Assembly (NCBI GenBank): GCA_034439715.1
Contig: JAWXAY010000094.1
Span: 1 to 64,000 of the forward strand
DNA length: 64,000 nucleotides
DNA from: Pseudomonadota bacterium
Lineage (GTDB): Bacteria; Bdellovibrionota; Bdellovibrionia; Bdellovibrionales; SG-bin7
Direction of reading: 5' to 3'
In this document: piece by piece, positions 86 to 50,695 of the stretch
How positions within the stretch are numbered: the first letter of the stretch is position 1
Layout of the letters: every line of letters starts with the position of its first letter
Position numbers and translations under genes: made by a program
The notes under the pieces: generated by a model
Told to the model about the DNA's origin: nothing
Seen by the model: only the letters and a program-made list of their open reading frames with translations
Databases searched by the model: none

Positions 86-301
86 GTGAACACCACAGTT
101 GCCGATAATGATCCTCAGGCGATAAAGATGGCTTACCACTCCCTATTCGATGCAGTCGTAATCGGCGCTGAAAACGATCATGGAGAAAGATCCATCACCT
201 ATGTTTTAGGTGATGGATCACATGAGGACTATTTTGGTCCAAGGTCAGAAATGGTGGAGGCGGGGGGAATCGAACCCCCGTCCGCGAGAGATCCTGCATA
301 A
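86..301 (+). pseudogene. Possible C-terminal remnant of a site-specific recombinase reading into the tmRNA 3' end
   Basis: ORF ends in MVEAGGIEPPS, the antisense translation of the tmRNA 3' arm. In-frame TAA at 68-70; a different frame is open from the window start to TGA 87-89 (GTGA overlap or frameshift). No catalytic motif visible. Confidence 0.3.
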
Positions 302-608
302 GACGGGCTACATGTTTAGTCTGTAATTTGTTTTTGGCTGCAAGCGCCCACAGACAGGCTATCACAACCAATTTCCTCGGAATATTTAAGTGTTAAAGCC
401 CGAGGAGCGCCGTAACACCTAGACAGCTAAAGTGTCGCTACTTTTGGCCCCGCCATCAATCAGCCAAAGTAACGCAAGCTACCCTTAGGCAGCGAGAGCA
501 ACGTTGTCGTTGCCAGATAAACAGTTGGTAAGTTTTTAACGAGCTCCTCATACCATGCCCGACATGCTTCTCACGATTCACTACCCACGTCGAAACCTTG
601 TCGCCCCC
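252..608 (-). ncRNA. ssrA: tmRNA; resume-frame tag GNDNVALAA* at 514-485
   Basis: 5' GGGGGCGA..., 3' T-arm GGTTCGATTCC and ...CGCCTCCACCA; internal ORF ggc aac gac aac gtt gct ctc gct gcc taa; 357 nt. Confidence 0.97.
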
Positions 609-24050: not shown

Positions 24051-26288
24051 GTGTCTCTAGTGCCAATTAATCCAAATTGTTATGTCATAGGCGTTTTAGG
24101 TGGTAAAGGTGGTGTCGGCAAAAGTGTTTTTGCTGCCAATTTTGCTTTAGCTTACATGATTGAGTTGAAGGCGCAGACGCTTTTGATTGATCTCGACGCA
24201 AATTCTGGTGCTGATCAAGATATTATTCTAGGCGTTCGTTCGATAAAAACTATTTCAGAACTTGCCGCATACTCAGGACAAATCAATGTGCAGACAATTC
24301 CTACCTTGGTGGCTCGTCATCCCAGCGGACTAATGTTTGTGGGTGCGGTGAAGAGTCCCTCCGAGAGGCTAAATTGTGAACCAGATCTAGTCATCAGACA
24401 AATTGAAAGCCTCAGTAGATCATTTAATTGTATAGTTGTAGATTTAGGTTCTGAACTTGGCGCTCTCCAGCGTGCAGTGGCAGAACTATGCACTGTGCTT
24501 TGTGTGGTTACCACCGCAGAGGTATTAGCGGTCAATCAGACTGTACGCTTAGTTAATGAATTAGCTACAGCTGCATTTCCGTCGGACATGGTTCAGATCG
24601 TCGTCAACAAGTCGGGCCAAATGGGACTATCTCCTCAGAAAATTGGTCAGTCACTACGTCGAAATGTCTTTAGTGTTATTCCACAGGATGATGTGACTGT
24701 TAATATGTCTATCCAAAACTATCAACCCTTTGTAATTTCATCACCCAAGTCACCAGTGTCGTCAGCCTACCATGAAACCGTCAGACGGCTTACTGGAGGA
24801 ATACTTCAGCGTCTCGTAAGCATACAAAAGCCAAAAGGTACATTTGCCTCGCAAGGTTCAGCAGTGGCAAGCACATCAAGTGTGACTTCGGCTGGCGGCA
24901 TAAAAAACTCCCTGGCGCCACCGGGAAGAAAACTCGACGAGAAAACATTACTTAAATTACAAATTCATGGTGAACTTTTTAATCAGATGGATTTAAAAAA
25001 GGGAATCACGGATACCAAAGGTGATGTTGAAAAAGAAAAATCTCTTCGCGCAAAAACTCAACAGAAAATTTCAGAAATATTGGATGTGCAAAAGCAAGGT
25101 CTTCCTCGCGAGGAGCGCGCCAAGATTATCAAAGAAGTGTTGGATGAAGCACTCGGTTTGGGACCATTAGAAGAACTTCTGGCAGATGACATGGTAACTG
25201 AGATTATGGTTAACGGCTGCGACAAAATATACATTGAAAAAAGCGGTAAAAAAAGCCTTTCACAAACTACCTTTACTTCTAACCAACAGCTGAGAAATGT
25301 TATTGATCGAATTGTTTCGCCACTGGGGCGCCAGATTAATGACTCAAGTCCTTATGTCGACGCTCGTTTAAAAGACGGCAGCCGTGTTCATGCGATTATT
25401 GAACCCCTTTCTATCGACGGACCGACAGTCACGATCAGAAAATTTGCTAAAGACCCCGTCACGATTGATCATTATATAAAATGGGGAACGGCCTCAAAAC
25501 AAATTTTGGACTTTTTAAGAATCTGTGTCGAAAATGGTATTAACGTTGTCATCTCAGGCGGTACGGGTTCAGGTAAAACTACGCTATTGAATGTGCTTTC
25601 GAGTTTTATTCCAAAGACAGAAAGAATTATTACCGTTGAAGATGCCGCCGAGCTCCAATTAAAACAAGAGCATGTTGTAAGACTTGAAACCAAGCCTCCC
25701 AACATGGAGGGCAAGGGTGCGGTTACAATCCGGGATCTCATACGCAATACCTTACGTATGGCACCTAACCGCATAATAGTAGGGGAGTGTCGCGACGGGG
25801 CTGCTTTTGATATGTTGACCGCTATGAACACTGGCCATGATGGATCAATGACGACAATTCATGCTAATAATCCTACCGAGGCATTATCAAGAATTGAAAC
25901 ACTTTGTATGATGGCGGGAATGGACCTTCCGGCAAAAGCTATCCGACAGCAAATCGCTGGGGCGGTGGGACTTATCGTACAAATTGGACGCCTGTCCGAC
26001 GGATCCAGAAAAATAAAATATTTAACGGAAATTGTGGGCATGCAAGGTGGAGATGACAAAATCACGGCCCAAGATATTTTCGTATTTAAAGAAACAGGAT
26101 ATGACAAAAATCGAAAGGTTAATGGGTATTTTATGGCGACTGGCGCCATTCCAAATTTTTTGCAAAAACTAAAAGCTAAAGGTGTCGATGTGGCCACCGA
26201 TCTTTTCTCGTCAAGTGCACCAACTGGGCAAGACCAAGGCGGAACGGTTACGTCACCCCCTCCACCATTAAAAAAAGTAGGCGGTTAG
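24051..26288 (+). CDS. tadA: Fused TadZ/CpaE (MinD-like) and TadA/CpaF pilus ATPase
   Basis: N-terminal GGKGGVGKS; C-terminal GGTGSGKTTLLN, VEDAAEL, IVGECRD, NTGHDGSMTTIHAN. Confidence 0.95.
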   Translation: MSLVPINPNCYVIGVLGGKGGVGKSVFAANFALAYMIELKAQTLLIDLDANSGADQDIILGVRSIKTISELAAYSGQINVQTIPTLVARHPSGLMFVGAVKSPSERLNCEPDLVIRQIESLSRSFNCIVVDLGSELGALQRAVAELCTVLCVVTTAEVLAVNQTVRLVNELATAAFPSDMVQIVVNKSGQMGLSPQKIGQSLRRNVFSVIPQDDVTVNMSIQNYQPFVISSPKSPVSSAYHETVRRLTGGILQRLVSIQKPKGTFASQGSAVASTSSVTSAGGIKNSLAPPGRKLDEKTLLKLQIHGELFNQMDLKKGITDTKGDVEKEKSLRAKTQQKISEILDVQKQGLPREERAKIIKEVLDEALGLGPLEELLADDMVTEIMVNGCDKIYIEKSGKKSLSQTTFTSNQQLRNVIDRIVSPLGRQINDSSPYVDARLKDGSRVHAIIEPLSIDGPTVTIRKFAKDPVTIDHYIKWGTASKQILDFLRICVENGINVVISGGTGSGKTTLLNVLSSFIPKTERIITVEDAAELQLKQEHVVRLETKPPNMEGKGAVTIRDLIRNTLRMAPNRIIVGECRDGAAFDMLTAMNTGHDGSMTTIHANNPTEALSRIETLCMMAGMDLPAKAIRQQIAGAVGLIVQIGRLSDGSRKIKYLTEIVGMQGGDDKITAQDIFVFKETGYDKNRKVNGYFMATGAIPNFLQKLKAKGVDVATDLFSSSAPTGQDQGGTVTSPPPPLKKVGG

Positions 26289-28727: not shown

Positions 28728-29036
28728 ATGTTTAGAACTTTTCTTATATTAGGAATGCTTTTAGTGTCGCAGGTGGGATTAGCGGACGATAAAAACTTTA
28801 TAGATGTTGAGCCAGCGAATCAAACTGTGGCGGCAAATGCCGATGGCTGTCCTCCGCATAATATAACAGTGGGGTTAGAGAAAAATACCAACACGGGCAA
28901 TACCCCGGCCCCTGGAAAAACTACTCCGGGTACGGGCAAAAATGATCTTGAAATCAAGAGAATGCCCATTCAGTTTGACGAGGCACAGGTGATGGTCGCT
29001 GTTCACAACGATCCTTTTTCCCGGCCCTGCCAATAA
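28728..29036 (+). CDS. Small secreted, probably disordered protein; positional hit (Bd0108)-like gene
   Basis: GGAGG RBS, signal peptide ending GLA, Thr/Gly/Pro-rich, directly after the RHS gene. Confidence 0.6.
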   Translation: MFRTFLILGMLLVSQVGLADDKNFIDVEPANQTVAANADGCPPHNITVGLEKNTNTGNTPAPGKTTPGTGKNDLEIKRMPIQFDEAQVMVAVHNDPFSRPCQ

Positions 29037-29137: not shown

Positions 29138-29201
29138 TTCGAATACGAACTGAAGTTCACTATTCGAGGTTTGCCCAAAAATTGCATATTTCGAATACGA
29201 A
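29138..29201. promoter_or_regulatory. Two identical TTCG-AATA-CGAA palindromes, candidate operator pair
   Basis: TTCGAATACGAA at 29138-29149 and 29190-29201. Confidence 0.6.
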
Positions 29202-29231: not shown

Positions 29232-30209
29232 ATGAACTATCAAAAAACTTTATCAATAGCAGCCGTCGTATTTTTCGCAATCTTTTTGTCAGGTTCGCAG
29301 CTCTTTGCCCAACCTGAAGTTAAAGAAAGCCAACTGCTCTCTAAATTTGATAAATTATCCAACGCCGCTTTTGGCGAAACCGCTGTTAAGTCAGTAGATC
29401 TGGAAACAGTGAATGCAATTTACAAAAGTACGCTATCGAACCCTGTTAGTAAACTTGAAGTTCTAGAAAAATACGATCCCACCGGAATCATTGGGTTTTG
29501 TTTTGGACGTGCCATGACCGCCCATTTGACGGCTCGCGATTTTCGTATAGAGCCTAAATCAATATTCAAACTTTTTTTAGTGGGAGACTTACGGTCAAAT
29601 GGGAGTAAACCCGAGTGGCGATTTCACGTCACGACAGTAGTGCCTATGAAGGATGGTGCGAAATTAATTTGGATGGCAATTGACCCTATAATGAAGAAAC
29701 CAATAACTGTAGCACAGTGGATTCAGGAAGTTCGAACGGGTTGGGATTCTTGGCATGCAGATGAAAAACATCACGCTAAGTTATACCTTGTCAAAAATGA
29801 TGCCGTGATGCCAGATATTAGGTCCTTTCCTGAAGTGGAAACAGGTAAATATTTGATTGAATTGAAATTCAATCCAGAGGCCAATGGAATCAAAAAAAGT
29901 GTCAAATGGGCCAATGCCTTCGACGTAGATGATCAAATTTACGCGCCTACGAGTGTTAAAGTCGACAAATTTTTCTTAGTTACGAAATCAAATTCACGTA
30001 ATCAATTTTCATTTTTGGGACTCAAAATAAATACCGACGACATATCTTATAACAATTACTTTGTTGATCTATTGGCCACTTTCACCCAGCCGACATCTGA
30101 AGATACAAATTTAGAAAGCGTAAATAAAATGCGTTCCTTACATCCAACAGGTTATCGTCCAATGGGCTTTCAATTACATCGTCTTGTGGACCCAAGCTTT
30201 GGTGATTAA
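29232..30209 (+). CDS. Secreted protein-glutamine glutaminase-like Cys protease-fold protein
   Basis: Signal peptide; GFCFGRA (Cys), WRFHV (His), AIDP (Asp). Confidence 0.75.
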   Translation: MNYQKTLSIAAVVFFAIFLSGSQLFAQPEVKESQLLSKFDKLSNAAFGETAVKSVDLETVNAIYKSTLSNPVSKLEVLEKYDPTGIIGFCFGRAMTAHLTARDFRIEPKSIFKLFLVGDLRSNGSKPEWRFHVTTVVPMKDGAKLIWMAIDPIMKKPITVAQWIQEVRTGWDSWHADEKHHAKLYLVKNDAVMPDIRSFPEVETGKYLIELKFNPEANGIKKSVKWANAFDVDDQIYAPTSVKVDKFFLVTKSNSRNQFSFLGLKINTDDISYNNYFVDLLATFTQPTSEDTNLESVNKMRSLHPTGYRPMGFQLHRLVDPSFGD

Positions 30210-31550
30210 ATGAAAAATCTCTTAAGCCGTAAATCGGGTCCATTCTATCATGAATATGAGGCCTTCTCAGAAGAGCGGCGGCAAATTATTATTCGTACTA
30301 ACCTTGCTAAAATTTTAGAAATAGCTAGTCAAACCGATTTTTACCGCGACCAATTGAATTCCGTCAAATGGGACGTAAGTGATATCCATCCCCTTAAAAA
30401 TATTGCACCGTTGCTGAGTTCAGATTTACGAGCCAATTTGCCTCCGGAAAACTCACGGCTATTGAGTCGGCCAGGCACAGGGTACACTGTTTTTCAGAGT
30501 GGAGGGACAACAGGAACTCCAAAGACTTCGCTTTTTTCGTTTGAAGAAATGGAATTAATAAATGAAGGCAATGCCCGCGGTTTTTATGCTGTCGGACTAA
30601 ATGAGCAGGACAGAGTGGCAAATCTTTGGGCGGCGGGCGGTTTATATATGACCTTTATTCATATGAATCGCATGCTCATGGATTATGGTTGCATGAGCTT
30701 TCCATTTTCGAATCATACTCCGGTGGATTTCATACTAGAGGTTGCCAAAGTATTTAATGTAAATTGCTTTACAGGAATCACTAGCGTTGTTTTAAACTGT
30801 TTGAGAGAAATTCACACAGTTGCACCTGGAACATTAAATGTGGATAAAATCTTTTTTGGCGGCGAGCATATTTATGAGGCAGATCGTCGAGAAATGAATC
30901 AAAAATTTGGTGTCAAAGTCATCAATGCTCCAGGGTACGGCACGGTAGACAGTTGGTATCTGGGATATCAATGTTCACACCTCTCCAACGGAATGTTTCA
31001 TGCTTTCGACGATATGGTCTACATCGAAATAGTAAACGAAGAGGAAAAAAAGCATTGTGTGCCAGGTGAAATAGGCATGCTCCTTGCGACCCCGTACTTT
31101 AGAACCTTAACTCCTATCATTCGGTATCGGGTGGGAGATCGCGCTCGCTGGCTTAAAACAGCTTGCACCTGTGGCCGAACCACGCCTCTCTTCGAATTGC
31201 TGGGACGCGGAGATGACGTACTTCGTATAGGATATGACTCTGTTGATTACGATTTTGTACAAGAAGTAGTTTCCCGAGTACCGGGAGCCAGCGGACGCAT
31301 TCAAATGCAAAAATGTCGCCTTGATGGGCGAGATCTCCTCACTATCAGAGTTGAAACTTCGCAGCCTGTTTCGGAATATTCAACAATGTCTAAGATACTT
31401 GAAGACATTTTCGATTTTGAGCGCCCTTCGTTTCGAGAATTTGTAAAAAAGGGAACTGTACTTCCGCTCAAAGTAGAGTGGCTACTAGAAGGACAATTAC
31501 CGCGAAATGAGCGAACTGGAAAATTAATTCGCGTGGTAGACTCGCTATGA
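30210..31550 (+). CDS. Phenylacetate-CoA ligase (PaaK)-like adenylate-forming enzyme
   Basis: QSGGTTGTPK, GYGTVD, IIRYRVGD, LGRGDD, RTGKL. Confidence 0.9.
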   Translation: MKNLLSRKSGPFYHEYEAFSEERRQIIIRTNLAKILEIASQTDFYRDQLNSVKWDVSDIHPLKNIAPLLSSDLRANLPPENSRLLSRPGTGYTVFQSGGTTGTPKTSLFSFEEMELINEGNARGFYAVGLNEQDRVANLWAAGGLYMTFIHMNRMLMDYGCMSFPFSNHTPVDFILEVAKVFNVNCFTGITSVVLNCLREIHTVAPGTLNVDKIFFGGEHIYEADRREMNQKFGVKVINAPGYGTVDSWYLGYQCSHLSNGMFHAFDDMVYIEIVNEEEKKHCVPGEIGMLLATPYFRTLTPIIRYRVGDRARWLKTACTCGRTTPLFELLGRGDDVLRIGYDSVDYDFVQEVVSRVPGASGRIQMQKCRLDGRDLLTIRVETSQPVSEYSTMSKILEDIFDFERPSFREFVKKGTVLPLKVEWLLEGQLPRNERTGKLIRVVDSL

Positions 31551-33007
31551 ATACCAATCGCTTACACCTTCAAATTGCAAAGCAGAATATCAATTCAGTC
31601 ATCACTTTTATTGACTCGTGGGGAAGAGAGAAGGAAATACCGGAGAACCTTCTGACAGAAATATCGGGATCGCTGGGCGCGACTCTCGCGATGATAGTTG
31701 AAAAAAGTAATCAATGGAACGCCAATGGAGAAATTCGCATCGACCTATTCCGAAAAGATAACGAATTTGTAATTGAATTATTGAATTCAGGCATTCCTTT
31801 GTTTCCGGGTGATTTTGAGATTTATTCCGCAAGACCACAAATTGAAGCCGCTCGCAAGAGAAGAGGTTTTTCTCGCTTAGAGTTCGAAAACTGTGGGCGC
31901 CTGGGTCAGAAGTTAACTTTCGGTATAAGTACAGAAGTTTCATCAACTCCTATTCTGAAGGGGAGCGGAGTATTAGAGCGACACAGCATGGACGAAACCA
32001 TCATTCGAGTGCTCCGTCCTGGCGAGGAAAAGCAATTGAGTCGACTTTTTCATAAAGTTTACGGATATCGTTACATCTCAGATTTCGTATACTACCCAGA
32101 AAAAATAGCTGATATGATTAAATCGGGTCGACTCATTTCATTGGTTGCCGAAATGTCAGACGGCAGTTTGGCTGGTCATGTCGGACTCTTACAGCTAAAT
32201 GATTCACCGTCAGTGTTTGAAGCGGCGCTCGGCTTAGTAGATCCAAGTTATAAAACAAACGGGCTTTTTGGACGTATCTTTAGTCGGCTACAAGAAATAA
32301 AAAAGGGTCGAGACTTTCAATACTGCATTTATGATTTTGTCACTAACCACGAATTTAGCCAGAGGTTGGTTTCTAAATTTGGCTATCGAGATTTGGCGCT
32401 CTTTCTGGGAAGTCAAGTTTCAGAGACTCAGGCACGTCTTTCTACCTTAGGAATAGGTCAGGATGCGATCGATATGGATCGATATTCTCTTCTCGTCGCA
32501 GTAGAGCCGGGTGTCCCCCATCCGTTCGGAAAAGAAATTTCATTGCCCACCCAAATTGGCGAAGCCACCGAATTTTTATTGAGCCCTTTAGGTGTGACGT
32601 GGGTACCAATCTCGCGCTTTCATCCCTTGATGAAAGAGGGAGATTTCTCGTTAAAACTTCAACCAGAGCAAAAAGCTGCTGTTTTTGATTTTCATAAACC
32701 AGGATTCCAGGCGCTCGAAAAAATTATCCTGAAGTGGCGAGAACTTTTAAAAGATAAATACGAGTATGTAGCTGTTGATTTTCCGGTGAATTTTTCGGGA
32801 CTCGGTCAGTTGTATGACATATTGGCGTCCCACGGTTTTTTTATGGCTGGCTTTGTACCTTATCATTACTCGACAGAATTGGCCTTCCGTTTTCAATTTC
32901 TTACACCCACAAAAGTGAGTTTTGACAATATAAAGATGCACTCGGTAGACGGCAGAAAATTGCTGGCGATGGTGCGAGCGGACTACGAGAGGAACACAAT
33001 CCTATGA
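31547..33007 (+). CDS. Degenerate HATPase_c (RsbW-like) plus GNAT-fold fusion protein
   Basis: N-terminal FVIELLNSGIP; central LSRLFHKVYGYRY ... LAGHVGL ... LVDPSYKTNGLFGRI. Confidence 0.7.
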   Translation: MNTNRLHLQIAKQNINSVITFIDSWGREKEIPENLLTEISGSLGATLAMIVEKSNQWNANGEIRIDLFRKDNEFVIELLNSGIPLFPGDFEIYSARPQIEAARKRRGFSRLEFENCGRLGQKLTFGISTEVSSTPILKGSGVLERHSMDETIIRVLRPGEEKQLSRLFHKVYGYRYISDFVYYPEKIADMIKSGRLISLVAEMSDGSLAGHVGLLQLNDSPSVFEAALGLVDPSYKTNGLFGRIFSRLQEIKKGRDFQYCIYDFVTNHEFSQRLVSKFGYRDLALFLGSQVSETQARLSTLGIGQDAIDMDRYSLLVAVEPGVPHPFGKEISLPTQIGEATEFLLSPLGVTWVPISRFHPLMKEGDFSLKLQPEQKAAVFDFHKPGFQALEKIILKWRELLKDKYEYVAVDFPVNFSGLGQLYDILASHGFFMAGFVPYHYSTELAFRFQFLTPTKVSFDNIKMHSVDGRKLLAMVRADYERNTIL

Positions 33008-34134
33008 AATTATTTGAGAGTTCCGAAAAAATTAGCGCCATCGAAAATCCAGTAGACTGGACACCCGAAAAAAATACTTTGTTTTATAAATCCTGTGAGG
33101 AGATGGCCAATTTTCATTATAAAAACAATCACGTCATTCGACATTTATACGACCGACATGGATTTGACCCAAACTCTATAAAATGCGAATCCGATGTCGC
33201 CCGAATCCCTTCTGTGAGTGTCACGGCTATGAAATACCATTTACTGACCACCCTTCCACATACAGACACCGTATTGAGACTAACTTCAAGCGGCACACGC
33301 GGACAGAAAACTCAGATTTGGTTCGATCAACAAAGTTTGGATCGCGTTCAAAAAATGCTCGATGTGTATTTCGAACAGCTGTCTTTTGTCAGTAATATAC
33401 CTAACAATTACATGATTTTTAATTATGACCCTGACGACGCCGGCGATTTGGGAATCGCGTTTACCGAGAAGAATCAAATGCGCTTCGCTCCCATAGCAGA
33501 CTCTTTTTTTGCAATTAAAAAAGACTCTCAAGGCAGTTGGTATTTTGATAAAGAAAAAGTTATGGCAAAATTGCGAAAATTTGAGAATGAAAAAAAACCG
33601 ATTCGAATTTTTGCCATGCCGGCGTTTCTTTTCGAATTTTTAAACTGGATGAGAGTGGAAGGACATCAACCTTTGAAATTCTCTTCTGAAAGTTGGATTA
33701 TGACAGGTGGTGGCTGGAAGGCTGCAGAAGATAAAAAAATCACCCGAGAGGCCTTTCGCATAATGTGTCAGGAAGCATTTGGTATTCCGTTGCACCAACA
33801 GCGGGATGCCTTTGGAATGGCCGAACATTGTGCCCCTTATTTTGAGTGTGCTCAACATCGTTTTCATATTCCCGTTTTCAATCGAATTATTATTCGTGAC
33901 CCATTGACTATGACAGAAGTTCCCAAAGGGGAATCTGGCCTTATGGAATTTGTCACGCCGTTTAACGCAATGATGCCGACGTTATCTATTCTCTCTACTG
34001 ATTATGGCCGAATTCGCTCAGAAGCTTGCGATTGCGGTGGCGCATCGCCCACTTTTGAAATCCTAGGAAGAGCCGGTACGAGTAAACACAAAGGTTGTGC
34101 ACTAACAGCTTCAGAAATTGTGAGGCGCGTATGA
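33004..34134 (+). CDS. LuxE-family acyl-protein synthetase
   Basis: LTSSGTRG, TGGGWK, DAFGMAEH, LSTDYG, C-terminal KGCAL. Confidence 0.92.
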   Translation: MKLFESSEKISAIENPVDWTPEKNTLFYKSCEEMANFHYKNNHVIRHLYDRHGFDPNSIKCESDVARIPSVSVTAMKYHLLTTLPHTDTVLRLTSSGTRGQKTQIWFDQQSLDRVQKMLDVYFEQLSFVSNIPNNYMIFNYDPDDAGDLGIAFTEKNQMRFAPIADSFFAIKKDSQGSWYFDKEKVMAKLRKFENEKKPIRIFAMPAFLFEFLNWMRVEGHQPLKFSSESWIMTGGGWKAAEDKKITREAFRIMCQEAFGIPLHQQRDAFGMAEHCAPYFECAQHRFHIPVFNRIIIRDPLTMTEVPKGESGLMEFVTPFNAMMPTLSILSTDYGRIRSEACDCGGASPTFEILGRAGTSKHKGCALTASEIVRRV

Positions 34135-36728
34135 GTCATTTGAGATATTTATTTGGTGAAGTCGTTGTGGCAGATAAGCCACTCTCAGTAAAGGATGCTG
34201 AGGAGATATGTCGACGTGCAAGTCTTGCTCGTTCCCGCATGAATTCTTACCCCAACGATAAAGTGTTAGCACTCCTTGGACGGGTTCAAAAACTTTGGGC
34301 TGATAAAAACTCAAATTATAGAAGACGAGCTATGGATAAACTTCCTGAGTTGACCGGTTTTTCGCTGCCGATGTTGGAACTTGGGATGCAAGAGTTGGTC
34401 TGGAGTCTTGACCCAGAAGTTTTAAAGAAAAAACTAGATTGTGAAACTCAGAATATTCCAAAAGTTTACGGAGAAAAATTCAATTCTGAAAATAAAACAT
34501 TGTTACGCTATTACCCCATAGGCACGGTATTTCATGTGCTCTCCGGAAATGTTTTTTTAGTAGGACCCGGCTCCCTAATAGAAGGTTTGATAACGGGAAA
34601 CGTTAACATTCTTAAAATGCCTTCAGAAGAACGGTTTTTTCTTCCTTGGTTTTTAGAGTCTTTAAAAGAATGTGACATAGATGGAGTGGTCTCATCTTCA
34701 ATTGCGGCCATTGATTTTTCGTCGTCTCAACAAGATGTACTTGATACTTTTAAGAATCAGATGGATGGAATCGTGATTTGGGGTGGAGAGCAGGCGGTAC
34801 AAGGATATAGAAACGGTGCGCCAGCAAGAACGCGAATCATTGTTTTTGGTCCCAAATTAAGTTTCAGTTTAGTCACAAAAAAAGGTGTCGAGGCACTCGG
34901 TATCTCGCGAATTGCTCTTGAGATTGCCAAAGAAATTATAATATGGGATCAGCAAGCCTGTACAGCACCACAAGCCTGCTACGTCGAAGGATCCGAAATC
35001 GCAAGCCTTCTTTTAGATGAGCTCAAAGTAGCCATGGCAAAACTGGAAGTCCAATACCCTGCCGGGTCCCCGTCTCGAGATTCTGCAGTAGAAATTAGAA
35101 AATTGCGGGGAATCGCTGAGATCCGCGAGGGCCTAGGAGCTGGCAAGCTTGTGGATTCGGGTCACAACAATTTGAATTACACTTTTTTTTCTGACAATAA
35201 TCTTGAGCTGGATCCCTCTCCGCTAAATCGAACTCTTCGCATCGTACCTTTCTCGAATATTAATGATGTCTTGGAATCCATAAAGGGGCTGCGGGGTTAC
35301 TTACAAACAGTAGGGGTCGCGGTTGGTACTTCAGAATGGGGTCCATTGGTACATGAATTTTCTATGGTAGGTGGCCTAAGAATTCTACCGTTAGGCTCAA
35401 TGGCACTTGGAGAAATTGATGATCCTCATGATGGCCAATACGATCTCGCCCAATATTTAAATTTAGTCGTGGCCCGCGGGCCCCTGGACGACCTTACCCC
35501 GTTTGATGTTGCCAGCGATGAGTATCGTGAAGCCCTTCGCGATCAAAAATTACGCGAAATGCTCGCTCACGCTAATAAGTCGCCATTTTATCAAGAGCGT
35601 TTGAAAAATATTAGTATTCAAAGTTTAAAGGATCTTCATAAAATCCCAGTCCTATCTCGCCTGGAATGGGAAAACAATATGCCACCAATGAAAGAGACTC
35701 TCGCGACGACACCACCCAAGGGCGGTTATGTCACTAGATCCGGCGGCTCTACCGGCGTCGCAAAGTTTTCATATTTCGATAAAAGAGACTGGAATGCCAT
35801 GCTCAAGAGCGCTGTCAAAATGTTCCAGGCGAGTGGATTGAGTTCTGAAGATCGTATTGCAAACTTCATGTCGGCAGGCGATCTCTACGGAAGTTTTATT
35901 TCATTTAATCATGTAAATTTTGAATTGGGTGCAACCTCTTATTGCTTTGCCGGTGCGACGGACCCCCAGAATTTTTTAAATATTGTGGGATCCTTTAAAA
36001 TTAACGTGATCCAAGGGATAACTCCCGTGGTAATGAATGTCTTAAGAGGGGCTAAGTCCTTAGATCCTAGTTTTGAAATCGAGAAAGTTCTTTTCGCCGG
36101 CATGCCAATGTGCAGTGCTGATAGAAAGTGGATCAAAACTGAACTAAAAGCCAAATCTATTGTTTCAATTATCGGCACGACCGAAAGTAATCATATCGGT
36201 TACCAATGTGAATTTTTAGAGGGACGATTTCACCATATTCCCGAAGATTATAATCATATCGAAATAATTGGTGGTCGTCTCATTGTCACAAATCTTGATA
36301 AATGGAATTACCCGGTTATTCGCTATGATATTGGCGATGCGGGAAAGTTTACTGAAACGGCATGTGCCTGTGGCCGAAAGGACCGCGTATTTGAGTATTT
36401 TGGCAGGTGTGACGATCTCATAGCCACCGGCATGATGAACCTATCCTATAGTGATTTGGTAAAAGCTCTCGCCCCTACTGAAGCCTCCCAAATCCAAATC
36501 ATAATAGGCTTTAAAAATAATATTGATAATCTAACTATCAATATAGAATCGGGAATAAAGGACAAATTGACGAACACCCAAGTCACTGAACTTCTTGATG
36601 CGGGCCTTACAGATTTTTCACTATTCCGAAATAAATATTTTGGCTTAGAGATAAATATTTTAAAACCCGGAACTCTGAAACTCAATGATCGTACTGGCAA
36701 AGTGAGTCTAATAATTGATGAGCGCTAA
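34131..36728 (+). CDS. LuxC-family acyl-CoA reductase fused to a PaaK-like adenylation domain
   Basis: HVLSGNV, WGGEQAV, FGPKLSF, WDQQACTAPQ, PHDG; then RSGGSTG, IRYDIGD, FGRCDD, RTGKV; ATGA overlap with luxE-like stop. Confidence 0.92.
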   Translation: MSHLRYLFGEVVVADKPLSVKDAEEICRRASLARSRMNSYPNDKVLALLGRVQKLWADKNSNYRRRAMDKLPELTGFSLPMLELGMQELVWSLDPEVLKKKLDCETQNIPKVYGEKFNSENKTLLRYYPIGTVFHVLSGNVFLVGPGSLIEGLITGNVNILKMPSEERFFLPWFLESLKECDIDGVVSSSIAAIDFSSSQQDVLDTFKNQMDGIVIWGGEQAVQGYRNGAPARTRIIVFGPKLSFSLVTKKGVEALGISRIALEIAKEIIIWDQQACTAPQACYVEGSEIASLLLDELKVAMAKLEVQYPAGSPSRDSAVEIRKLRGIAEIREGLGAGKLVDSGHNNLNYTFFSDNNLELDPSPLNRTLRIVPFSNINDVLESIKGLRGYLQTVGVAVGTSEWGPLVHEFSMVGGLRILPLGSMALGEIDDPHDGQYDLAQYLNLVVARGPLDDLTPFDVASDEYREALRDQKLREMLAHANKSPFYQERLKNISIQSLKDLHKIPVLSRLEWENNMPPMKETLATTPPKGGYVTRSGGSTGVAKFSYFDKRDWNAMLKSAVKMFQASGLSSEDRIANFMSAGDLYGSFISFNHVNFELGATSYCFAGATDPQNFLNIVGSFKINVIQGITPVVMNVLRGAKSLDPSFEIEKVLFAGMPMCSADRKWIKTELKAKSIVSIIGTTESNHIGYQCEFLEGRFHHIPEDYNHIEIIGGRLIVTNLDKWNYPVIRYDIGDAGKFTETACACGRKDRVFEYFGRCDDLIATGMMNLSYSDLVKALAPTEASQIQIIIGFKNNIDNLTINIESGIKDKLTNTQVTELLDAGLTDFSLFRNKYFGLEINILKPGTLKLNDRTGKVSLIIDER

Positions 36729-37944
36729 TATACTGCCACTTCGCAATCGTGAGTTCGGTAAACTTTGGTTAGGGCAAGTGTTTAGCCAAATGGGCACCCG
36801 TATGTACCAAATTGCCATTGCCTGGTGGATAGTAAAACGCGGCGGCGACTCCCAGGGACTTTACCTGGGAATCCTTTTTGTCTTGGCAAGTCTACCCGCT
36901 TTGGCATTTGTAAAAAAAATTGCCCGCTTGGTTGAAGAATCTAACGCGAAAAAAATTATTTTTTGGAGCGATGTTAGTGCCGTAATCGTGACCTTAAGTT
37001 TGTACTTATTTATCTCCGCAAATTTCGATTTATTGCTTCCTATTTATTTCGTAGGATTCTTGTTAGCCACTTTTCAGTCGGCAATAGATCCTTCGCTTTT
37101 TAAAGCTGCGTCCGAGTCCGTTGCCAAAGAGGATATGGAGTCAGCGGTTGGTCTCATAACCACGACAACGACCGTCGCCTCGTTTTTGGGAGCCTTTGTG
37201 GGTGCGGGCGCCATGAGTGTCCTTAGCTTTGAAGCATTGGTCTTGCTAAATGCTTTAAGCTACGCTTTATCTGCCGTTTTGACGGCATCGGTAAAATTTA
37301 AATTCTCAACAAAAAATAAAGCGGCTGTAGGGCCTTCGGCTCCCAGTGCAGAGCCCGAAACATCACTCGAATCGATTCCGGCCTATAGTATTATCAAATC
37401 AATTTTACTAGTTTTTGCCAGTGTAAACTTTTTCTCCGTTCCCACACTGATCTTGATACCGATATACACAAACCGAGTATTAAAGGGCGAGGCCTCACAG
37501 TTAGCCTTGATGGAAGGAGCGTTGGCACTCGGTCTGTTGTTGGGTTCCCTTTTGTCTAGCCGCTTTAAAACTTCTGCTGTTCCCATGAATACCGTATTCT
37601 GGTGCTTGTTGAGTTTTGCCGGTTTTCTTGCACTACCAGTTTTTCTGAAAAGCAGCAGTTGGTACTTCTTGTCTCTCTGTGGTGCCGGATTTTCTATGGG
37701 ACTTTCCAATGTTAAAATTATCACATATTTTGAAAGTGCCATTCCGGCCGGTTTAAAAGGTCGATTCTTTGCCTACTTAAATGCAGCCGTTTCGCCAGCT
37801 ATTCCAATTTCTTTTTTTATTTTCGGGTTGGTGATTGGGATGATGCCTCTAGAACAAGTCATTTTAATACAAGCCGCAGGCGTAGCCATCCTCTCGTTTC
37901 TAATTGTTAAAATATCTAAACGCGAGGCCAAGCTATGGCGTTAA
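36718..37944 (+). CDS. MFS transporter (MefA/DHA3-like exporter)
   Basis: LRNREFGKLWLGQVFSQMG, about 12 hydrophobic segments, LKGRFFA. Confidence 0.9.
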   Translation: MSANILPLRNREFGKLWLGQVFSQMGTRMYQIAIAWWIVKRGGDSQGLYLGILFVLASLPALAFVKKIARLVEESNAKKIIFWSDVSAVIVTLSLYLFISANFDLLLPIYFVGFLLATFQSAIDPSLFKAASESVAKEDMESAVGLITTTTTVASFLGAFVGAGAMSVLSFEALVLLNALSYALSAVLTASVKFKFSTKNKAAVGPSAPSAEPETSLESIPAYSIIKSILLVFASVNFFSVPTLILIPIYTNRVLKGEASQLALMEGALALGLLLGSLLSSRFKTSAVPMNTVFWCLLSFAGFLALPVFLKSSSWYFLSLCGAGFSMGLSNVKIITYFESAIPAGLKGRFFAYLNAAVSPAIPISFFIFGLVIGMMPLEQVILIQAAGVAILSFLIVKISKREAKLWR

Positions 37945-39110
37945 CTTTTCGTCTTGCCCAAGAAGTCGATGTCTGGAGTTTAATGGCCCTTTATCAACGG
38001 GTGGGAAGCACTTACACCGAGGACGCCATTTTCTTGGATTACCAAAAACTTTTGCTGGCCGTAAACTCTTTGGATAATATCTGGGTCATTGCCGAACGCG
38101 ACGGAGTAATTACCACGACAATCAGCCTTATGATTGATCGAGAACAGTGTCTCGCGAAAATTGCAAGGATCATTGTAAATCCACAGCTTTCCTCTGTGCG
38201 TTCTGATCTCAAAGATACGATTCGCTATTGCATAAAATTCCTCGAAGAATCAAGTTCTAAAATTCATGTATTGTATTGCACCACAATGACGGTGCCGATG
38301 CAGTTTCAAGAAGTAACTTTAGAAGAAGGTTTTAAAATTCTCGGGATTTTTCCGAACGCTATGGGCGTCGATTACACTCGACTGAATGGCCTTACTGCGT
38401 ATTACTTTGGTAATACTTTAGCTGAGGATCGGGTCAGCGGCTTTGCCCTTCACCCCGAATTGCGCCCATTTTTTGAAATATCCCGCAGTCAATTAAACTT
38501 ACCTGATTTACCCGTCGCAAATATTTCTGCTTTGTCTAACGACAATCAAGCGGATTCCATTGGCATGCTTGAAGTGGTGAATGCGCCAAATCTCGTGGCA
38601 GCAAAATTTGAAAAGCTTCGACGACGGCGACGACAAATGAATGACTTTTATCCCTTCTATAAGCCTAACATTATGATTTCTAGTCCGGATGAAGACATCC
38701 AGCTATTTGCGAAGGTCATTGAATCAAATCATTTTGCAGCCTTCGTAGGCGAAGAACTGCTCGTCGCCGTAAACCCGGCAAAATTGTATCAAACCGCCGT
38801 TCAACTATTAAAGGCCCAGAATATAACCTACTTTGAAATAATTAACGATGCCGCTGACACCGTCGGCAATCAGTGGCTCTTAGAGGCTTCATTTGTTCCC
38901 TGCTGTTATATTCCGGCGTTCAAAAAGCAAAATGAAAAGCGCAGAGACTATGTGGTTTTTTGCAAAACATTTGAATATATAACACGTCCTGATTTGAAAA
39001 TTCGAAAGCCCTTTCTAGATTTTTTTCGAGAATTCTTTAGCATGGAATGGAAAAACTACGTAGGAACTGGCGAGTTATTTTCGAAATCCCACTATGAGAC
39101 AAAAAAGTGA
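37935..39110 (+). CDS. GNAT-fold protein
   Basis: LTFRLAQEVD, WVIAERDG, ARIIVNP, EGFKILGIFPN. Confidence 0.7.
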   Translation: MALTFRLAQEVDVWSLMALYQRVGSTYTEDAIFLDYQKLLLAVNSLDNIWVIAERDGVITTTISLMIDREQCLAKIARIIVNPQLSSVRSDLKDTIRYCIKFLEESSSKIHVLYCTTMTVPMQFQEVTLEEGFKILGIFPNAMGVDYTRLNGLTAYYFGNTLAEDRVSGFALHPELRPFFEISRSQLNLPDLPVANISALSNDNQADSIGMLEVVNAPNLVAAKFEKLRRRRRQMNDFYPFYKPNIMISSPDEDIQLFAKVIESNHFAAFVGEELLVAVNPAKLYQTAVQLLKAQNITYFEIINDAADTVGNQWLLEASFVPCCYIPAFKKQNEKRRDYVVFCKTFEYITRPDLKIRKPFLDFFREFFSMEWKNYVGTGELFSKSHYETKK

Positions 39111-39273: not shown

Positions 39274-39522
39274 ATGAAAGCAAGTTTATTTGTCCTAATG
39301 GTTATGGGATTTAACGTTTCGCACGCAAACATCATACAGACTGAGCTGGGTAAGCGCGATGTCCCGAGCCAAATTGCCAACTCTTTTACTAGAGGGCACA
39401 CAGGCAAAGCAAATGACCCACAAAACAATGGTTCTGGGTTGGCGTGTGAGCAACTTGGTAAAGGTGAAACATTAACATATTCAGCGGCTGTAGGTAGATC
39501 AGGCGAACAAATAGCGAAGTAA
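39274..39522 (+). CDS. Small secreted protein
   Basis: GGAGG RBS; signal peptide ending SHA. Confidence 0.7.
   Translation: MKASLFVLMVMGFNVSHANIIQTELGKRDVPSQIANSFTRGHTGKANDPQNNGSGLACEQLGKGETLTYSAAVGRSGEQIAK

Positions 39523-50619: not shown

Positions 50620-50695
<76 letters not shown>

What the first reader, a model, noticed from the sequence alone, without database searches (positions are those of the whole stretch)
29232..39110. Luciferase-less LuxE/LuxC operon with three adenylation modules, two GNATs and an exporter, inside the predation (hit/tad) locus
Seen: seven co-oriented genes, all abutting or overlapping (30209/30210, ATGA at 31547, 33004 and 34131, short overlaps at 36718 and 37935): secreted glutaminase-like protein, PaaK-like ligase, HATPase-GNAT, LuxE (C-terminal KGC intact), LuxC-PaaK fusion (DQQAC intact), MFS and GNAT. 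No luxA, luxB, luxD, carrier protein, integrase or regulator. Established: LuxE and LuxC activate and reduce acids to aldehydes; GNATs transfer acyl groups; DHA3-type MFS proteins export small molecules. From recalled B. bacteriovorus synteny the hit gene is followed closely by the cheY-like gene and groESL, so this block looks inserted. Inference: a carrier-free pathway making an exported acylated or aldehyde metabolite (signal, prey toxin or protease inhibitor), or a protein-acylation system. I know of no characterised product.
Basis: partly seen in the sequence, partly recalled or inferred. Interest (0 to 1): 0.85.

Follow-up and report, generated by a model that had tools for sequence, protein, structure and literature searches.

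The report
Enlarged leupeptin-type operon with secreted hydrolase
These seven genes of an uncultured Bdellovibrio-like bacterium carry the same enzyme set as the known leupeptin operon, so they likely make and export a small capped peptide aldehyde that blocks proteases, and they add a conserved cysteine enzyme, predicted to be secreted, that likely trims or disarms the product.

Summary
The seven genes, their overlaps and the catalytic cysteines are as described. The cluster is not an uncharacterised lux-like system. Five of its parts (LuxE-like ligase, LuxC-PaaK fusion, PaaK-like ligase, GNAT, MFS) are the published parts of the NRPS-free leupeptin (leup) cluster, at 24-36% identity to a leup proxy and in a separate clade, so the product is likely another N-acyl peptide aldehyde. 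All seven genes recur together in 20 of 35 full-flank loci from Bdellovibrionota, Elusimicrobiota and others. The hit/tad position is an insertion peculiar to this genome (0 of 57 related loci lie there). Not found in print: (i) a cluster-linked clade of protein-glutaminase-fold Cys-His-Asp enzymes, also found beside an unrelated ATP-grasp ligase cluster; (ii) an RsbW-fold/GNAT fusion; (iii) a second GNAT that has lost its acyl-CoA loop and weakly models as a partner of the first. No product was measured. The scan reached the leup reading before on other DNA (34 notes, at least 29 genomes). Verdict: new variant of a known kind.

The parts
28728..29036 (+). Flank: 102-aa small protein in the position of hit (bd0108), after the RHS gene; not part of the cluster
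   Evidence: relatives carry 97-104-aa ORFs at the same place; named by position only
29138..29201 (.). Two copies of a 12-base palindromic box (TTCG-N4-CGAA) 52 bases apart, upstream of g1; candidate operator sites
   Evidence: the 12-mer occurs exactly twice in the 3.26-Mb assembly, both here; the same 12-mer was seen upstream of 0 of 19 related clusters, the looser TTCG-N4-CGAA in 1 of 19
29232..30209 (+). g1: 325-aa papain/transglutaminase-type cysteine enzyme of protein-glutaminase fold, signal-peptide-like N terminus, triad Cys90-His132-Asp151
   Evidence: PF18626 E 1e-8; triad invariant in 27 of 27; model pLDDT 87, VIA Z 9.3 to 3a54; hydrophobic N-terminal stretch in 24 of 27 by a crude hydropathy scan
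30210..31550 (+). g2: free-standing PaaK-like adenylating ligase, likely amide-forming
   Evidence: P-loop, YG(T)VD and GK motifs intact; 36% to the ligase half of the LeupB proxy, 28% to the LeupC proxy
31547..33007 (+). g3: RsbW/SpoIIAB-fold domain (1-130, kinase motifs degenerate) fused to a LeupD-type GNAT (about 150-325) and a further alpha/beta domain
   Evidence: hhalign 98% to the LeupD proxy; N-box Glu/Asn not conserved, G1 Asp replaced by Asn in 32 of 35
33004..34134 (+). g4: LuxE-like acyl-protein synthetase (LeupA counterpart) with C-terminal Cys365
   Evidence: PF04443 E 2e-42; Cys motif in 51 of 51 full-length homologues; 33% to the LeupA proxy
34131..36728 (+). g5: LuxC-like thioester reductase (Cys277) fused to a second PaaK-like ligase (LeupB counterpart)
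   Evidence: PF05893 E 3e-76; Cys277 invariant in 44 of 44; 26% and 25% for the two halves to the LeupB proxy
36718..37944 (+). g6: MFS exporter of the TIGR00900 (H+ antiporter) type
   Evidence: 29% to the MFS of the Kitasatospora cluster
37935..39110 (+). g7: second GNAT-family protein lacking the acyl-CoA pyrophosphate loop; candidate non-catalytic partner of g3
   Evidence: hhalign 100% over 368 columns to the Kitasatospora GNAT; motif counts; weak complex prediction
39274..39522 (+). Flank: 82-aa small protein; relatives carry 79-82-aa ORFs at this place; right boundary of the insertion

Best explanation
This is a seven-gene, carrier-free biosynthetic operon that has the enzyme set of the leupeptin cluster and likely builds and exports a short N-acyl peptide aldehyde of still unknown sequence, which its predicted-secreted cysteine enzyme g1 likely trims or destroys outside the cytoplasm. 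Proposed steps: (1) g3 caps the first amino acid with an acyl group from acyl-CoA, with g7 as a possibly non-catalytic partner (inferred); (2) g2 and the ligase half of g5 each adenylate the growing N-acyl acid and join the next amino acid (inferred from family, intact motifs and the leup precedent); (3) g4 adenylates the finished acid, takes it on Cys365 and hands it to Cys277 of g5, where NADPH releases the aldehyde (chemistry established for LuxE/LuxC, residues shown here, substrate inferred); (4) g6 exports it (inferred); (5) g1 hydrolyses an amide of the product for maturation or self-protection (least certain step, about even odds). The likely use is to inhibit serine or cysteine proteases of prey, competitors or grazers. 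The place in the hit/tad locus is an insertion without a conserved functional link.
For: Gene content equals the published leup reference: MFS, LuxE/PaaK acyltransferase, acyl-CoA reductase, phenylacetate-CoA-ligase-family protein, GNAT (bioRxiv 10.64898/2026.08.25.747093, passages); leupeptin is made by AMP-dependent ligases and a reductase without NRPS (PMC11212599, passages); N-acetyl-Leu-Leu and N-acetyl-Leu-Leu-Arg are listed among Klebsiella features (PMC11480411 supplement). A Salmonella plasmid operon (LuxE, fusion, PaaK, GNAT) serves as sequence proxy: 9 of the first 14 residues of its fusion equal those encoded by the published primer arm behind K. michiganensis leupA, and it spans 5.76 kb against 5.83 kb for leupABCD. 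Every window enzyme has a counterpart in it at 24-36% (GNAT by hhalign 98%). Catalytic cysteines and adenylation motifs are conserved. PaaK-like relatives in the PDB include NatL2-type and AjiA1 ligases, which I recall as amide-forming. Co-conservation in 35 full-flank loci: LuxE 34, g7 32, MFS 31, g2 30, g3 30, g1 23, all seven 20, same order 18; no other family recurs in more than 4 loci (ORFs of 120 aa or more). g1: of the 20 strongest matches in 401 genomes of the phylum, 14 lie in this cluster, 4 beside an ATP-grasp ligase/MATE cluster, 2 at contig ends; they form one clade (SH-aLRT 100) apart from 18 sampled free-standing relatives. g3-g7 complex: score 0.58, best of 3 controls 0.00, contacts agreeing at least 76%, partner pLDDT at least 81; the mark was reached by 116 of 157 solved and 2 of 215 mismatched pairs, but at 0.60 or under by only 18 solved and both mismatches, so weak.
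Against: No product, activity or expression was measured. Identity to the leup proxy is low (24-36%), whereas Salmonella and Kitasatospora clusters are 36-54% alike; the LuxE tree puts the window in its own 48-row clade (99), not in the 12-row leup-proxy clade (99) (quick tree, SH-aLRT only), so substrates may differ widely and need not be amino acids. The true LeupA-D sequences and the primary paper were not available; the proxy's own product is unknown. g1 is missing from 12 of 35 full-flank loci and from the neighbourhood in 3 of 18 genomes with this fusion type, so it is not essential; free-standing relatives occur in 111 of 401 genomes; the g1 profile was built from cluster-linked members, which favours them in the ranking; one 99%-complete genome (G067) has a clade member but no LuxE match. 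The ligase tree does not resolve which window ligase answers to LeupB or LeupC. The MFS remnant of the proxy is MdfA-type, a different subfamily.
Confidence: 0.7

Rival explanations
1. Same biosynthesis, but g1 is the target, not the processor: a secreted cysteine protease or deamidase used on prey or substrate proteins, held inactive by the co-produced aldehyde until release.
For: Peptide aldehydes inhibit cysteine proteases through hemithioacetals (PMC10548850, passages); g1 has an intact triad and a signal-like N terminus; its fold neighbours act on proteins (protein glutaminase, NTAQ1, LapG).
Against: The same g1 clade also sits beside an ATP-grasp ligase cluster in which no LuxC or LuxE match was seen in the 9-14 kb read (4 of 4 loci), which suits an enzyme acting on small amide products better than an aldehyde target.
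Confidence: 0.2
2. The aldehyde is only an intermediate and the end product is a cyclised or reduced signal molecule (pyrazinone-type autoinducer or amino alcohol), with g1 as the cleaving enzyme.
For: In Klebsiella and Photorhabdus leupeptin yields Leu-Arg pyrazinones by proteolytic cleavage, cyclisation and oxidation, and these act as signals (PMC11480411, passages).
Against: No receptor or regulator is co-conserved. This reading shares steps 1-4 with the best explanation and differs only in the end product.
Confidence: 0.15
3. A protein-modification system: the ligases and GNATs acylate a protein or envelope component, and the transglutaminase-like g1 attaches or removes the acyl group outside the cell.
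For: [quoted passage not shown]
Against: A small-molecule exporter in 31 of 35 loci and an intact aldehyde-releasing reductase; no co-conserved target gene; no conserved link to the pilus locus.
Confidence: 0.06
4. A catabolic or detoxifying module that activates and reduces aromatic or fatty acids (PaaK-like).
For: Best curated matches of the ligases are PaaK families and PaaK structures.
Against: Scores are far under the cut-offs (103 against 700 bits); no PaaA/PaaC match in the genome (95.7% complete); an exporter and two GNATs; the leup proxy gives the same PaaK-like scores.
Confidence: 0.03
5. A split lux system supplying fatty aldehyde to a luciferase elsewhere in the genome.
For: One luciferase-family gene exists on contig C58.
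Against: It is single, matches only model positions 3-120 at 38 bits and lies behind a short-chain dehydrogenase gene; such genes occur in 9 of 14 non-luminous control genomes; no LuxD match; LuxE and LuxC equivalog scores 126 of 550 and 102 of 750; true LuxE falls far outside on a long branch.
Confidence: 0.02

Closest known systems
Leupeptin cluster (MFS + leupABCD) of Klebsiella michiganensis, Photorhabdus and Xenorhabdus (Li et al. 2020, not seen; described through)
   Same: LuxE-like ligase, LuxC-PaaK fusion, free PaaK-like ligase, LeupD-type GNAT, MFS; no carrier protein or NRPS; catalytic cysteines kept; patchy occurrence as an insertion at a variable site.
   Different: 24-36% identity to the proxy and a separate clade; other gene order; GNAT fused to an RsbW-fold domain; a second GNAT without the CoA loop; a co-conserved cysteine enzyme; different MFS subfamily; the Asp of the G-D-L-Y motif is in the fused ligase here (18 of 20, free ligase 0 of 18) but in the free ligase of leup-type clusters (Asp or Glu 10 of 11, fused 0 of 11).
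Five-gene leup-type clusters of Streptomyces/Kitasatospora plasmids and of other Bdellovibrionota (L059, L060, L109-L128); no product found in the papers searched
   Same: Same core; the same MFS type and an orthologue of g7.
   Different: They group with the leup proxy, have one GNAT that keeps the CoA loop, and lack g1 and g3.
LuxCDE fatty-acid reductase of luminous bacteria (PMC9157457, passages; PDB 7xc6)
   Same: Adenylate, thioester on a LuxE C-terminal Cys, transfer to a LuxC Cys, NADPH release of an aldehyde; the C-terminal KGC motif.
   Different: No luxAB pair, no luxD; LuxC fused to a ligase; under the equivalog cut-offs; extra ligases, GNATs and exporter.
Protein glutaminase of Chryseobacterium/Flavobacterium (PDB 2zk9, 3a54, 8z3i; PF18626)
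   Same: Fold (Z 8.2-9.3, rmsd 3.8-4.6, about 145 aligned), Cys-His-Asp triad, signal-like N terminus.
   Different: 14-17% identity; C-terminal extension; forms a clade tied to biosynthetic clusters; substrate untested.
Prodrug-activating peptidases of xenocoumacin, colibactin and rhabdobranin (PMC9177418, passages)
   Same: A cluster-encoded hydrolase proposed to cut the exported acylated product.
   Different: Those are NRPS/PKS pathways with (recalled) serine peptidases of the ClbP type; g1 is a cysteine enzyme of another fold, and its role is only inferred.

Membership tests
leupABCD (leupeptin) cluster | LuxE-like ligase with C-terminal Cys | tested here: met
leupABCD (leupeptin) cluster | LuxC-like reductase fused to a PaaK-like ligase, catalytic Cys intact | tested here: met
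   the fusion is read from the Salmonella proxy, not from the Klebsiella record itself
leupABCD (leupeptin) cluster | Free-standing PaaK-like ligase | tested here: met
leupABCD (leupeptin) cluster | LeupD-type GNAT | tested here: met
   g3, hhalign 98% over 162 columns to the proxy; fused to an extra domain
leupABCD (leupeptin) cluster | Adjacent MFS transporter | tested here: met
   TIGR00900 type here, MdfA-type remnant in the proxy
leupABCD (leupeptin) cluster | No carrier protein or NRPS module | tested here: met
   genes abut with no room; no further family of 120 aa or more recurs in over 4 loci; shorter ORFs in related loci were not screened
leupABCD (leupeptin) cluster | Enzymes fall inside the leup clade | tested here: not met
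   separate 48-row clade against the 12-row proxy clade, both SH-aLRT 99 (quick tree); 24-36% identity. Filed therefore as a related subfamily that works like leup, not as leupABCD
leupABCD (leupeptin) cluster | Makes acetyl-Leu-Leu-argininal | not testable with these tools
   needs expression and LC-MS
lux operon (luxCDABE) | luxA/luxB luciferase pair | tested here: not met
   one weak, partial, single luciferase-family gene on another contig; genome 95.7% complete
lux operon (luxCDABE) | LuxD thioesterase | tested here: not met
   PF02273 0 matches in the assembly; genome 95.7% complete
lux operon (luxCDABE) | LuxE and LuxC at equivalog level | tested here: not met
   126 of 550 and 102 of 750 bits
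paa phenylacetate catabolism | PaaK at equivalog level with a PaaA/PaaC epoxidase | tested here: not met
Protein glutaminase (PF18626), for g1 | Fold and Cys-His-Asp triad | tested here: met
Protein glutaminase (PF18626), for g1 | Deamidates protein-bound Gln | not testable with these tools
   needs an assay
RsbW/SpoIIAB anti-sigma kinase, for g3 residues 1-130 | Fold | tested here: met
   Z 13.3, rmsd 2.1, 103 aligned to 6m36
RsbW/SpoIIAB anti-sigma kinase, for g3 residues 1-130 | N-box Glu...Asn and G1 Asp-x-Gly motifs (recalled) | tested here: not met
   no conserved Glu at the N-box, Asn in 16-17 of 35; G1 position Asn in 32 of 35, Asp in 0
Acyl-CoA-dependent GNAT, for g7 | Motif A (R/Q-x-x-G-x-G/A, recalled) | tested here: not met
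   R/Q-x-x-G in 2 of 35 orthologues, both out of place, against 11 of 17 in the other subfamilies; aromatic-R/Q start 1 of 35 against 17 of 17

The most novel reading that the evidence does not exclude
Predatory and other uncultured bacteria use a leupeptin-type assembly line for a new peptide aldehyde under two layers of control not described for such pathways: a GNAT/pseudo-GNAT heterodimer gated by a kinase-dead RsbW domain, and a periplasmic protein-glutaminase-fold enzyme that unmasks a capped prodrug. The g1 clade would be a new class of maturation enzymes for carrier-free peptide pathways and a genome-mining marker for them, as its recurrence beside an unrelated ATP-grasp cluster suggests.
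Probability: 0.25. Interest if true: 0.75.

Novelty: new variant of a known kind. Interest (0 to 1): 0.45.

Why it matters
Bdellovibrionota are studied as protein-armed predators, and none of my ten literature searches found a leupeptin-type pathway described for them (most directly; open-access library only). Here 98 of 401 genomes of the phylum match the reductase-ligase profile and 18 carry this subfamily. If the reading holds, the cluster gives a new protease-inhibitor scaffold from a compact 10-kb operon that can be expressed in a laboratory host, a test of how carrier-free ligases choose and order amino acids, and a candidate function for a large unnamed clade of secreted cysteine enzymes. 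The pathway type itself is known, which caps the surprise.

Tried and rejected
Single-protein scan of genome contigs found nothing; the alignment did. The primary leupeptin paper is not held, and no Klebsiella, Xenorhabdus or Photorhabdus chromosome could be reached, so a Salmonella plasmid operon stands in. Paper searches; searches returned nothing; supplements of the bioRxiv preprint could not be seen and may hold more on leup gene assignments. No RNA holder listed. Sigma-70 promoter and terminator scans of both flanks gave nothing above shuffles. No flanking direct repeat or nearby tRNA marks the insertion; GC 0.39-0.44 against 0.42 for the genome, tetranucleotide distance at the 75th percentile of 279 windows, so no sign of recent foreign origin. 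A functional link to hit/tad was rejected. A tRNA-dependent (Fem-type) role for the GNATs was considered: no such match appeared among the listed fold hits for g3, but the GNAT domain filled the lists, g3's last domain was not searched alone and g7 was not modelled alone, so this is inconclusive. A swap of the two ligases relative to leup is suggested by motifs and by g2's best match but not resolved by the tree. The careful LuxE tree did not finish; the quick tree is reported. In the g1 tree one row (L154) was cut wrongly and sits on a long branch. Laid contigs showed no joint skipping the cluster, which cannot show absence of such strains. Substrate specificity could not be predicted.
Full report
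Observation. Pfam and NCBIfam give Gln_deamidase_2 for g1, PaaK-like for g2, LuxE for g4, LuxC plus PaaK-like for g5 and an MFS of the TIGR00900 type for g6; all NCBIfam scores are under their curated cut-offs. g3 and g7 hit nothing alone. An alignment of 35 g3 homologues folds with pLDDT 86.5 into an RsbW/SpoIIAB-type domain (Z 13.3, rmsd 2.1, 103 aligned) and a GNAT (Z 11.1, rmsd 2.7, 156 aligned); the g7 profile (40 rows) finds GNAT structures for its first 140 positions. Contigs of run X3, which is not marked as the source, bridge both ends of the block. The runs that hold half or more of the sampled words (7 of 11 listed, 2 of them possible sources) are microbial mat metagenomes.

Position. 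The block follows a flp/tad locus, an RHS gene and a 102-aa gene in the hit position (Bd0108 and the RHS protein Bd0109 in PMC3818213, passages). In 18 of 29 relatives only 550-1181 bases separate RHS from the m141/cheY genes, against 10.8 kb here; 11 could not be read within the flank fetched. Two genomes of the same family have the empty site and a third has another 566-aa gene there, so the site takes insertions. None of 57 related loci has tadA, tadB, RHS or groEL within the fetched flanks; one has unrelated receiver-domain hits. One same-family genome holds all seven genes at another place. Composition is host-like. The position is therefore real but not a conserved feature.

Distribution. 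The fusion has 172 relatives of similar length; the 120 listed are full-length at 41-61% apart from itself. Named records are Bdellovibrionota, Elusimicrobiota, Riflebacteria and a few others. Of 55 loci with this fusion type, 35 had room for the whole cluster (20 dropped for short flanks): LuxE 34, g7 32, MFS 31, g2 30, g3 30, g1 23, all seven 20, same order 18. In four loci g1 has moved or turned but stayed within 10 kb (L044, L048, L052, L054). No other family of 120 aa or more recurs in more than 4 loci. In 401 genomes of the phylum 98 match the fusion profile at E 1e-20 or better; 18 (17 above 900 bits, one cut by a contig end) are of this type, and most others are a five-gene or three-gene type.

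What it is. [quoted passage not shown] PMC11212599 states that leupeptin comes from a non-NRPS pathway of AMP-dependent ligases and a reductase (passages). The primary paper (Li et al. 2020) was not held; what I say of its leupeptin-cleaving protease is recalled, apart from the cleavage-cyclisation route mentioned in PMC11480411 (passages, introduction and two parts of supplement 1 seen). For sequences I used an operon on Salmonella plasmid CP054717 (LuxE, 802-aa fusion, PaaK-like, 294-aa GNAT). The primer arm behind K. michiganensis leupA encodes 14 residues of which 9 equal the start of the Salmonella fusion, and the operon lengths agree (5.76 against 5.83 kb; PMC8283571, passages). Against this proxy the window's LuxE is 33% identical, the reductase 26%, the fused ligase 25%, g2 36% and 28% to the two ligases, and g3's GNAT 29% over 135 residues (hhalign 98%). 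The LuxE tree (70 rows, quick method, SH-aLRT only) has the window in a 48-row clade (99), the proxy with Streptomyces/Kitasatospora and other Bdellovibrionota in a 12-row clade (99), a 7-row clade of three-gene clusters, and true LuxE far outside on a long branch. So the cluster works like leup but is not leupABCD itself.

Mechanism. Shown: intact adenylation motifs in both ligases, the LuxE C-terminal Cys in 51 of 51, LuxC Cys277 in 44 of 44. Established for LuxE/LuxC: adenylation, thioester on the C-terminal Cys, transfer to the LuxC Cys, NADPH release of the aldehyde (PMC9157457, passages). Inferred: N-acylation by g3, two amide-forming steps by g2 and g5, reduction by g4/g5, export by g6. 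The acidic residue of the G-D-L-Y motif is in the fused ligase here (Asp 18 of 20; free ligase 0 of 18) and in the free ligase of leup-type clusters (Asp or Glu 10 of 11; fused 0 of 11) (41 of the loci were given to this alignment). This hints that the two ligation steps are assigned differently, but the ligase tree leaves the point open. The amino acids used cannot be predicted.

Additions not found in print. First, g1: triad Cys90-His132-Asp151 invariant in 27 of 27, protein-glutaminase fold (Foldseek E 2.5e-4; VIA Z 9.3, rmsd 3.8, 145 aligned), signal-like stretch in 24 of 27 by hydropathy only. Relatives occur in 111 of 401 genomes, but the 20 strongest matches (190 bits or more) are set apart: 14 lie in this cluster, 4 beside another putative carrier-free cluster (ATP-grasp amino-acid ligase, MATE, GNAT, cupin-MetRS fusion, PLP decarboxylase, FAD oxidoreductases, Lys/Orn N-hydroxylase), 2 at contig ends. 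On the catalytic core these and the other cluster-linked copies form one 35-row clade (100) apart from 18 sampled free-standing relatives. The profile was built from cluster-linked members and kin are not independent. Against a fixed role: g1 is absent from 12 of 35 loci, and one 99%-complete genome has a clade member without any LuxE match. Because the second cluster showed no reductase in the stretches read, I favour an enzyme that acts on the small amide product over an enzyme that is the aldehyde's target; prodrug peptidases are the precedent (PMC9177418, passages). Second, g3's RsbW-fold domain lacks the recalled kinase motifs and is likely a sensing or docking domain. Third, g7 is the orthologue of the single GNAT of the other subfamilies (hhalign 100%) but has lost the CoA loop: R/Q-x-x-G in 2 of 35 (both out of place) against 11 of 17, aromatic-R/Q start 1 of 35 against 17 of 17, while g3 keeps a K-x-x-G-L-F variant. 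A complex prediction of g3 (146-486) with g7 gave weak support: 0.58 against 0.00 for the best of 3 controls, contacts agreeing at least 76%, partner pLDDT at least 81; at this level only 18 of 157 solved pairs and both of the 2 passing mismatches (of 215) score, so it is a lead only.

Rivals. A pyrazinone-type signal as end product and g1 as the inhibitor's target remain open.

Novelty. Ten searches of the open-access library found no description of leup-type clusters in Bdellovibrionota or Elusimicrobiota, nor of the g1 clade; subscription papers and the preprint's supplements were not seen. I had formed the leupeptin reading before looking at earlier notes; the scan has reached it on other DNA in 34 notes from at least 29 genomes, which is no independent support. 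Verdict: new variant of a known kind, interest 0.45.

Noticed in passing
L133 (G081:C62), L134 (G227:C424), L135 (G215:C63), L136 (G190:C68): A second putative carrier-free biosynthetic cluster: ATP-grasp L-amino-acid ligase, MATE exporter, GNAT, cupin-MetRS fusion, two FAD oxidoreductases, Lys/Orn N-hydroxylase, PLP decarboxylase and a g1-clade cysteine enzyme. Possibly an N-N-bond or hydroxamate pathway (recalled gene logic); worth its own study.
   Followed up: partly
window 29138-29149 and 29190-29201: Two identical palindromic 12-mers, 52 bases apart, unique in the assembly; a GAAC-N4-GTTC box overlaps the first. Candidate operator; not conserved upstream of related clusters.
   Followed up: partly
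L109-L128; Other leup-type clusters are common in the phylum (57 of 100 genomes of family f22 match): five-gene MFS-GNAT-LuxE-fusion-PaaK, three-gene GNAT-LuxE-fusion, and forms with the RsbW-fold GNAT (L113, L114). G301 and G390 carry two types.
   Followed up: partly
L058 6254-12417 (CP054717.1; also CP053580.1): A leup-like operon on two conjugative Salmonella enterica plasmids, between transposase and recombinase genes, with only a 121-aa MFS remnant; the preprint describes leup as chromosomal in Klebsiella.
   Followed up: partly
L059, L060 and hits H4, H7-H9: Streptomyces/Kitasatospora plasmids carry five-gene leup-type clusters (PaaK, MFS, GNAT, LuxE, fusion): candidates for NRPS-free leupeptin-like compounds in actinomycetes.
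   Followed up: partly
L092 2069-3769 (G001:C83): [quoted passage not shown]
   Followed up: no
L011 2-5584: The g1 domain is the C-terminal end of an ORF of at least 1860 aa in an Elusimicrobiota genome.
   Followed up: no
L002, L013, L025, L029, L030, L031, L033: Some clusters carry an extra g7 paralogue nearby that keeps the CoA loop (4 of 5 strict).
   Followed up: partly
window 24051-26288: A 745-aa ORF joins a MinD/TadZ-like N-terminal part to the TadA ATPase; same-family relatives have the same long form.
   Followed up: no
window 252-608 and 50620-50695: tmRNA and tRNA-Phe genes; a low-GC stretch at 57-59 kb (0.35-0.37) was not examined.
   Followed up: no
L061 1486-2661 (G000:C58): A single luciferase-like monooxygenase gene overlapping the end of a short-chain dehydrogenase gene; unrelated to the cluster as far as seen.
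   Followed up: partly
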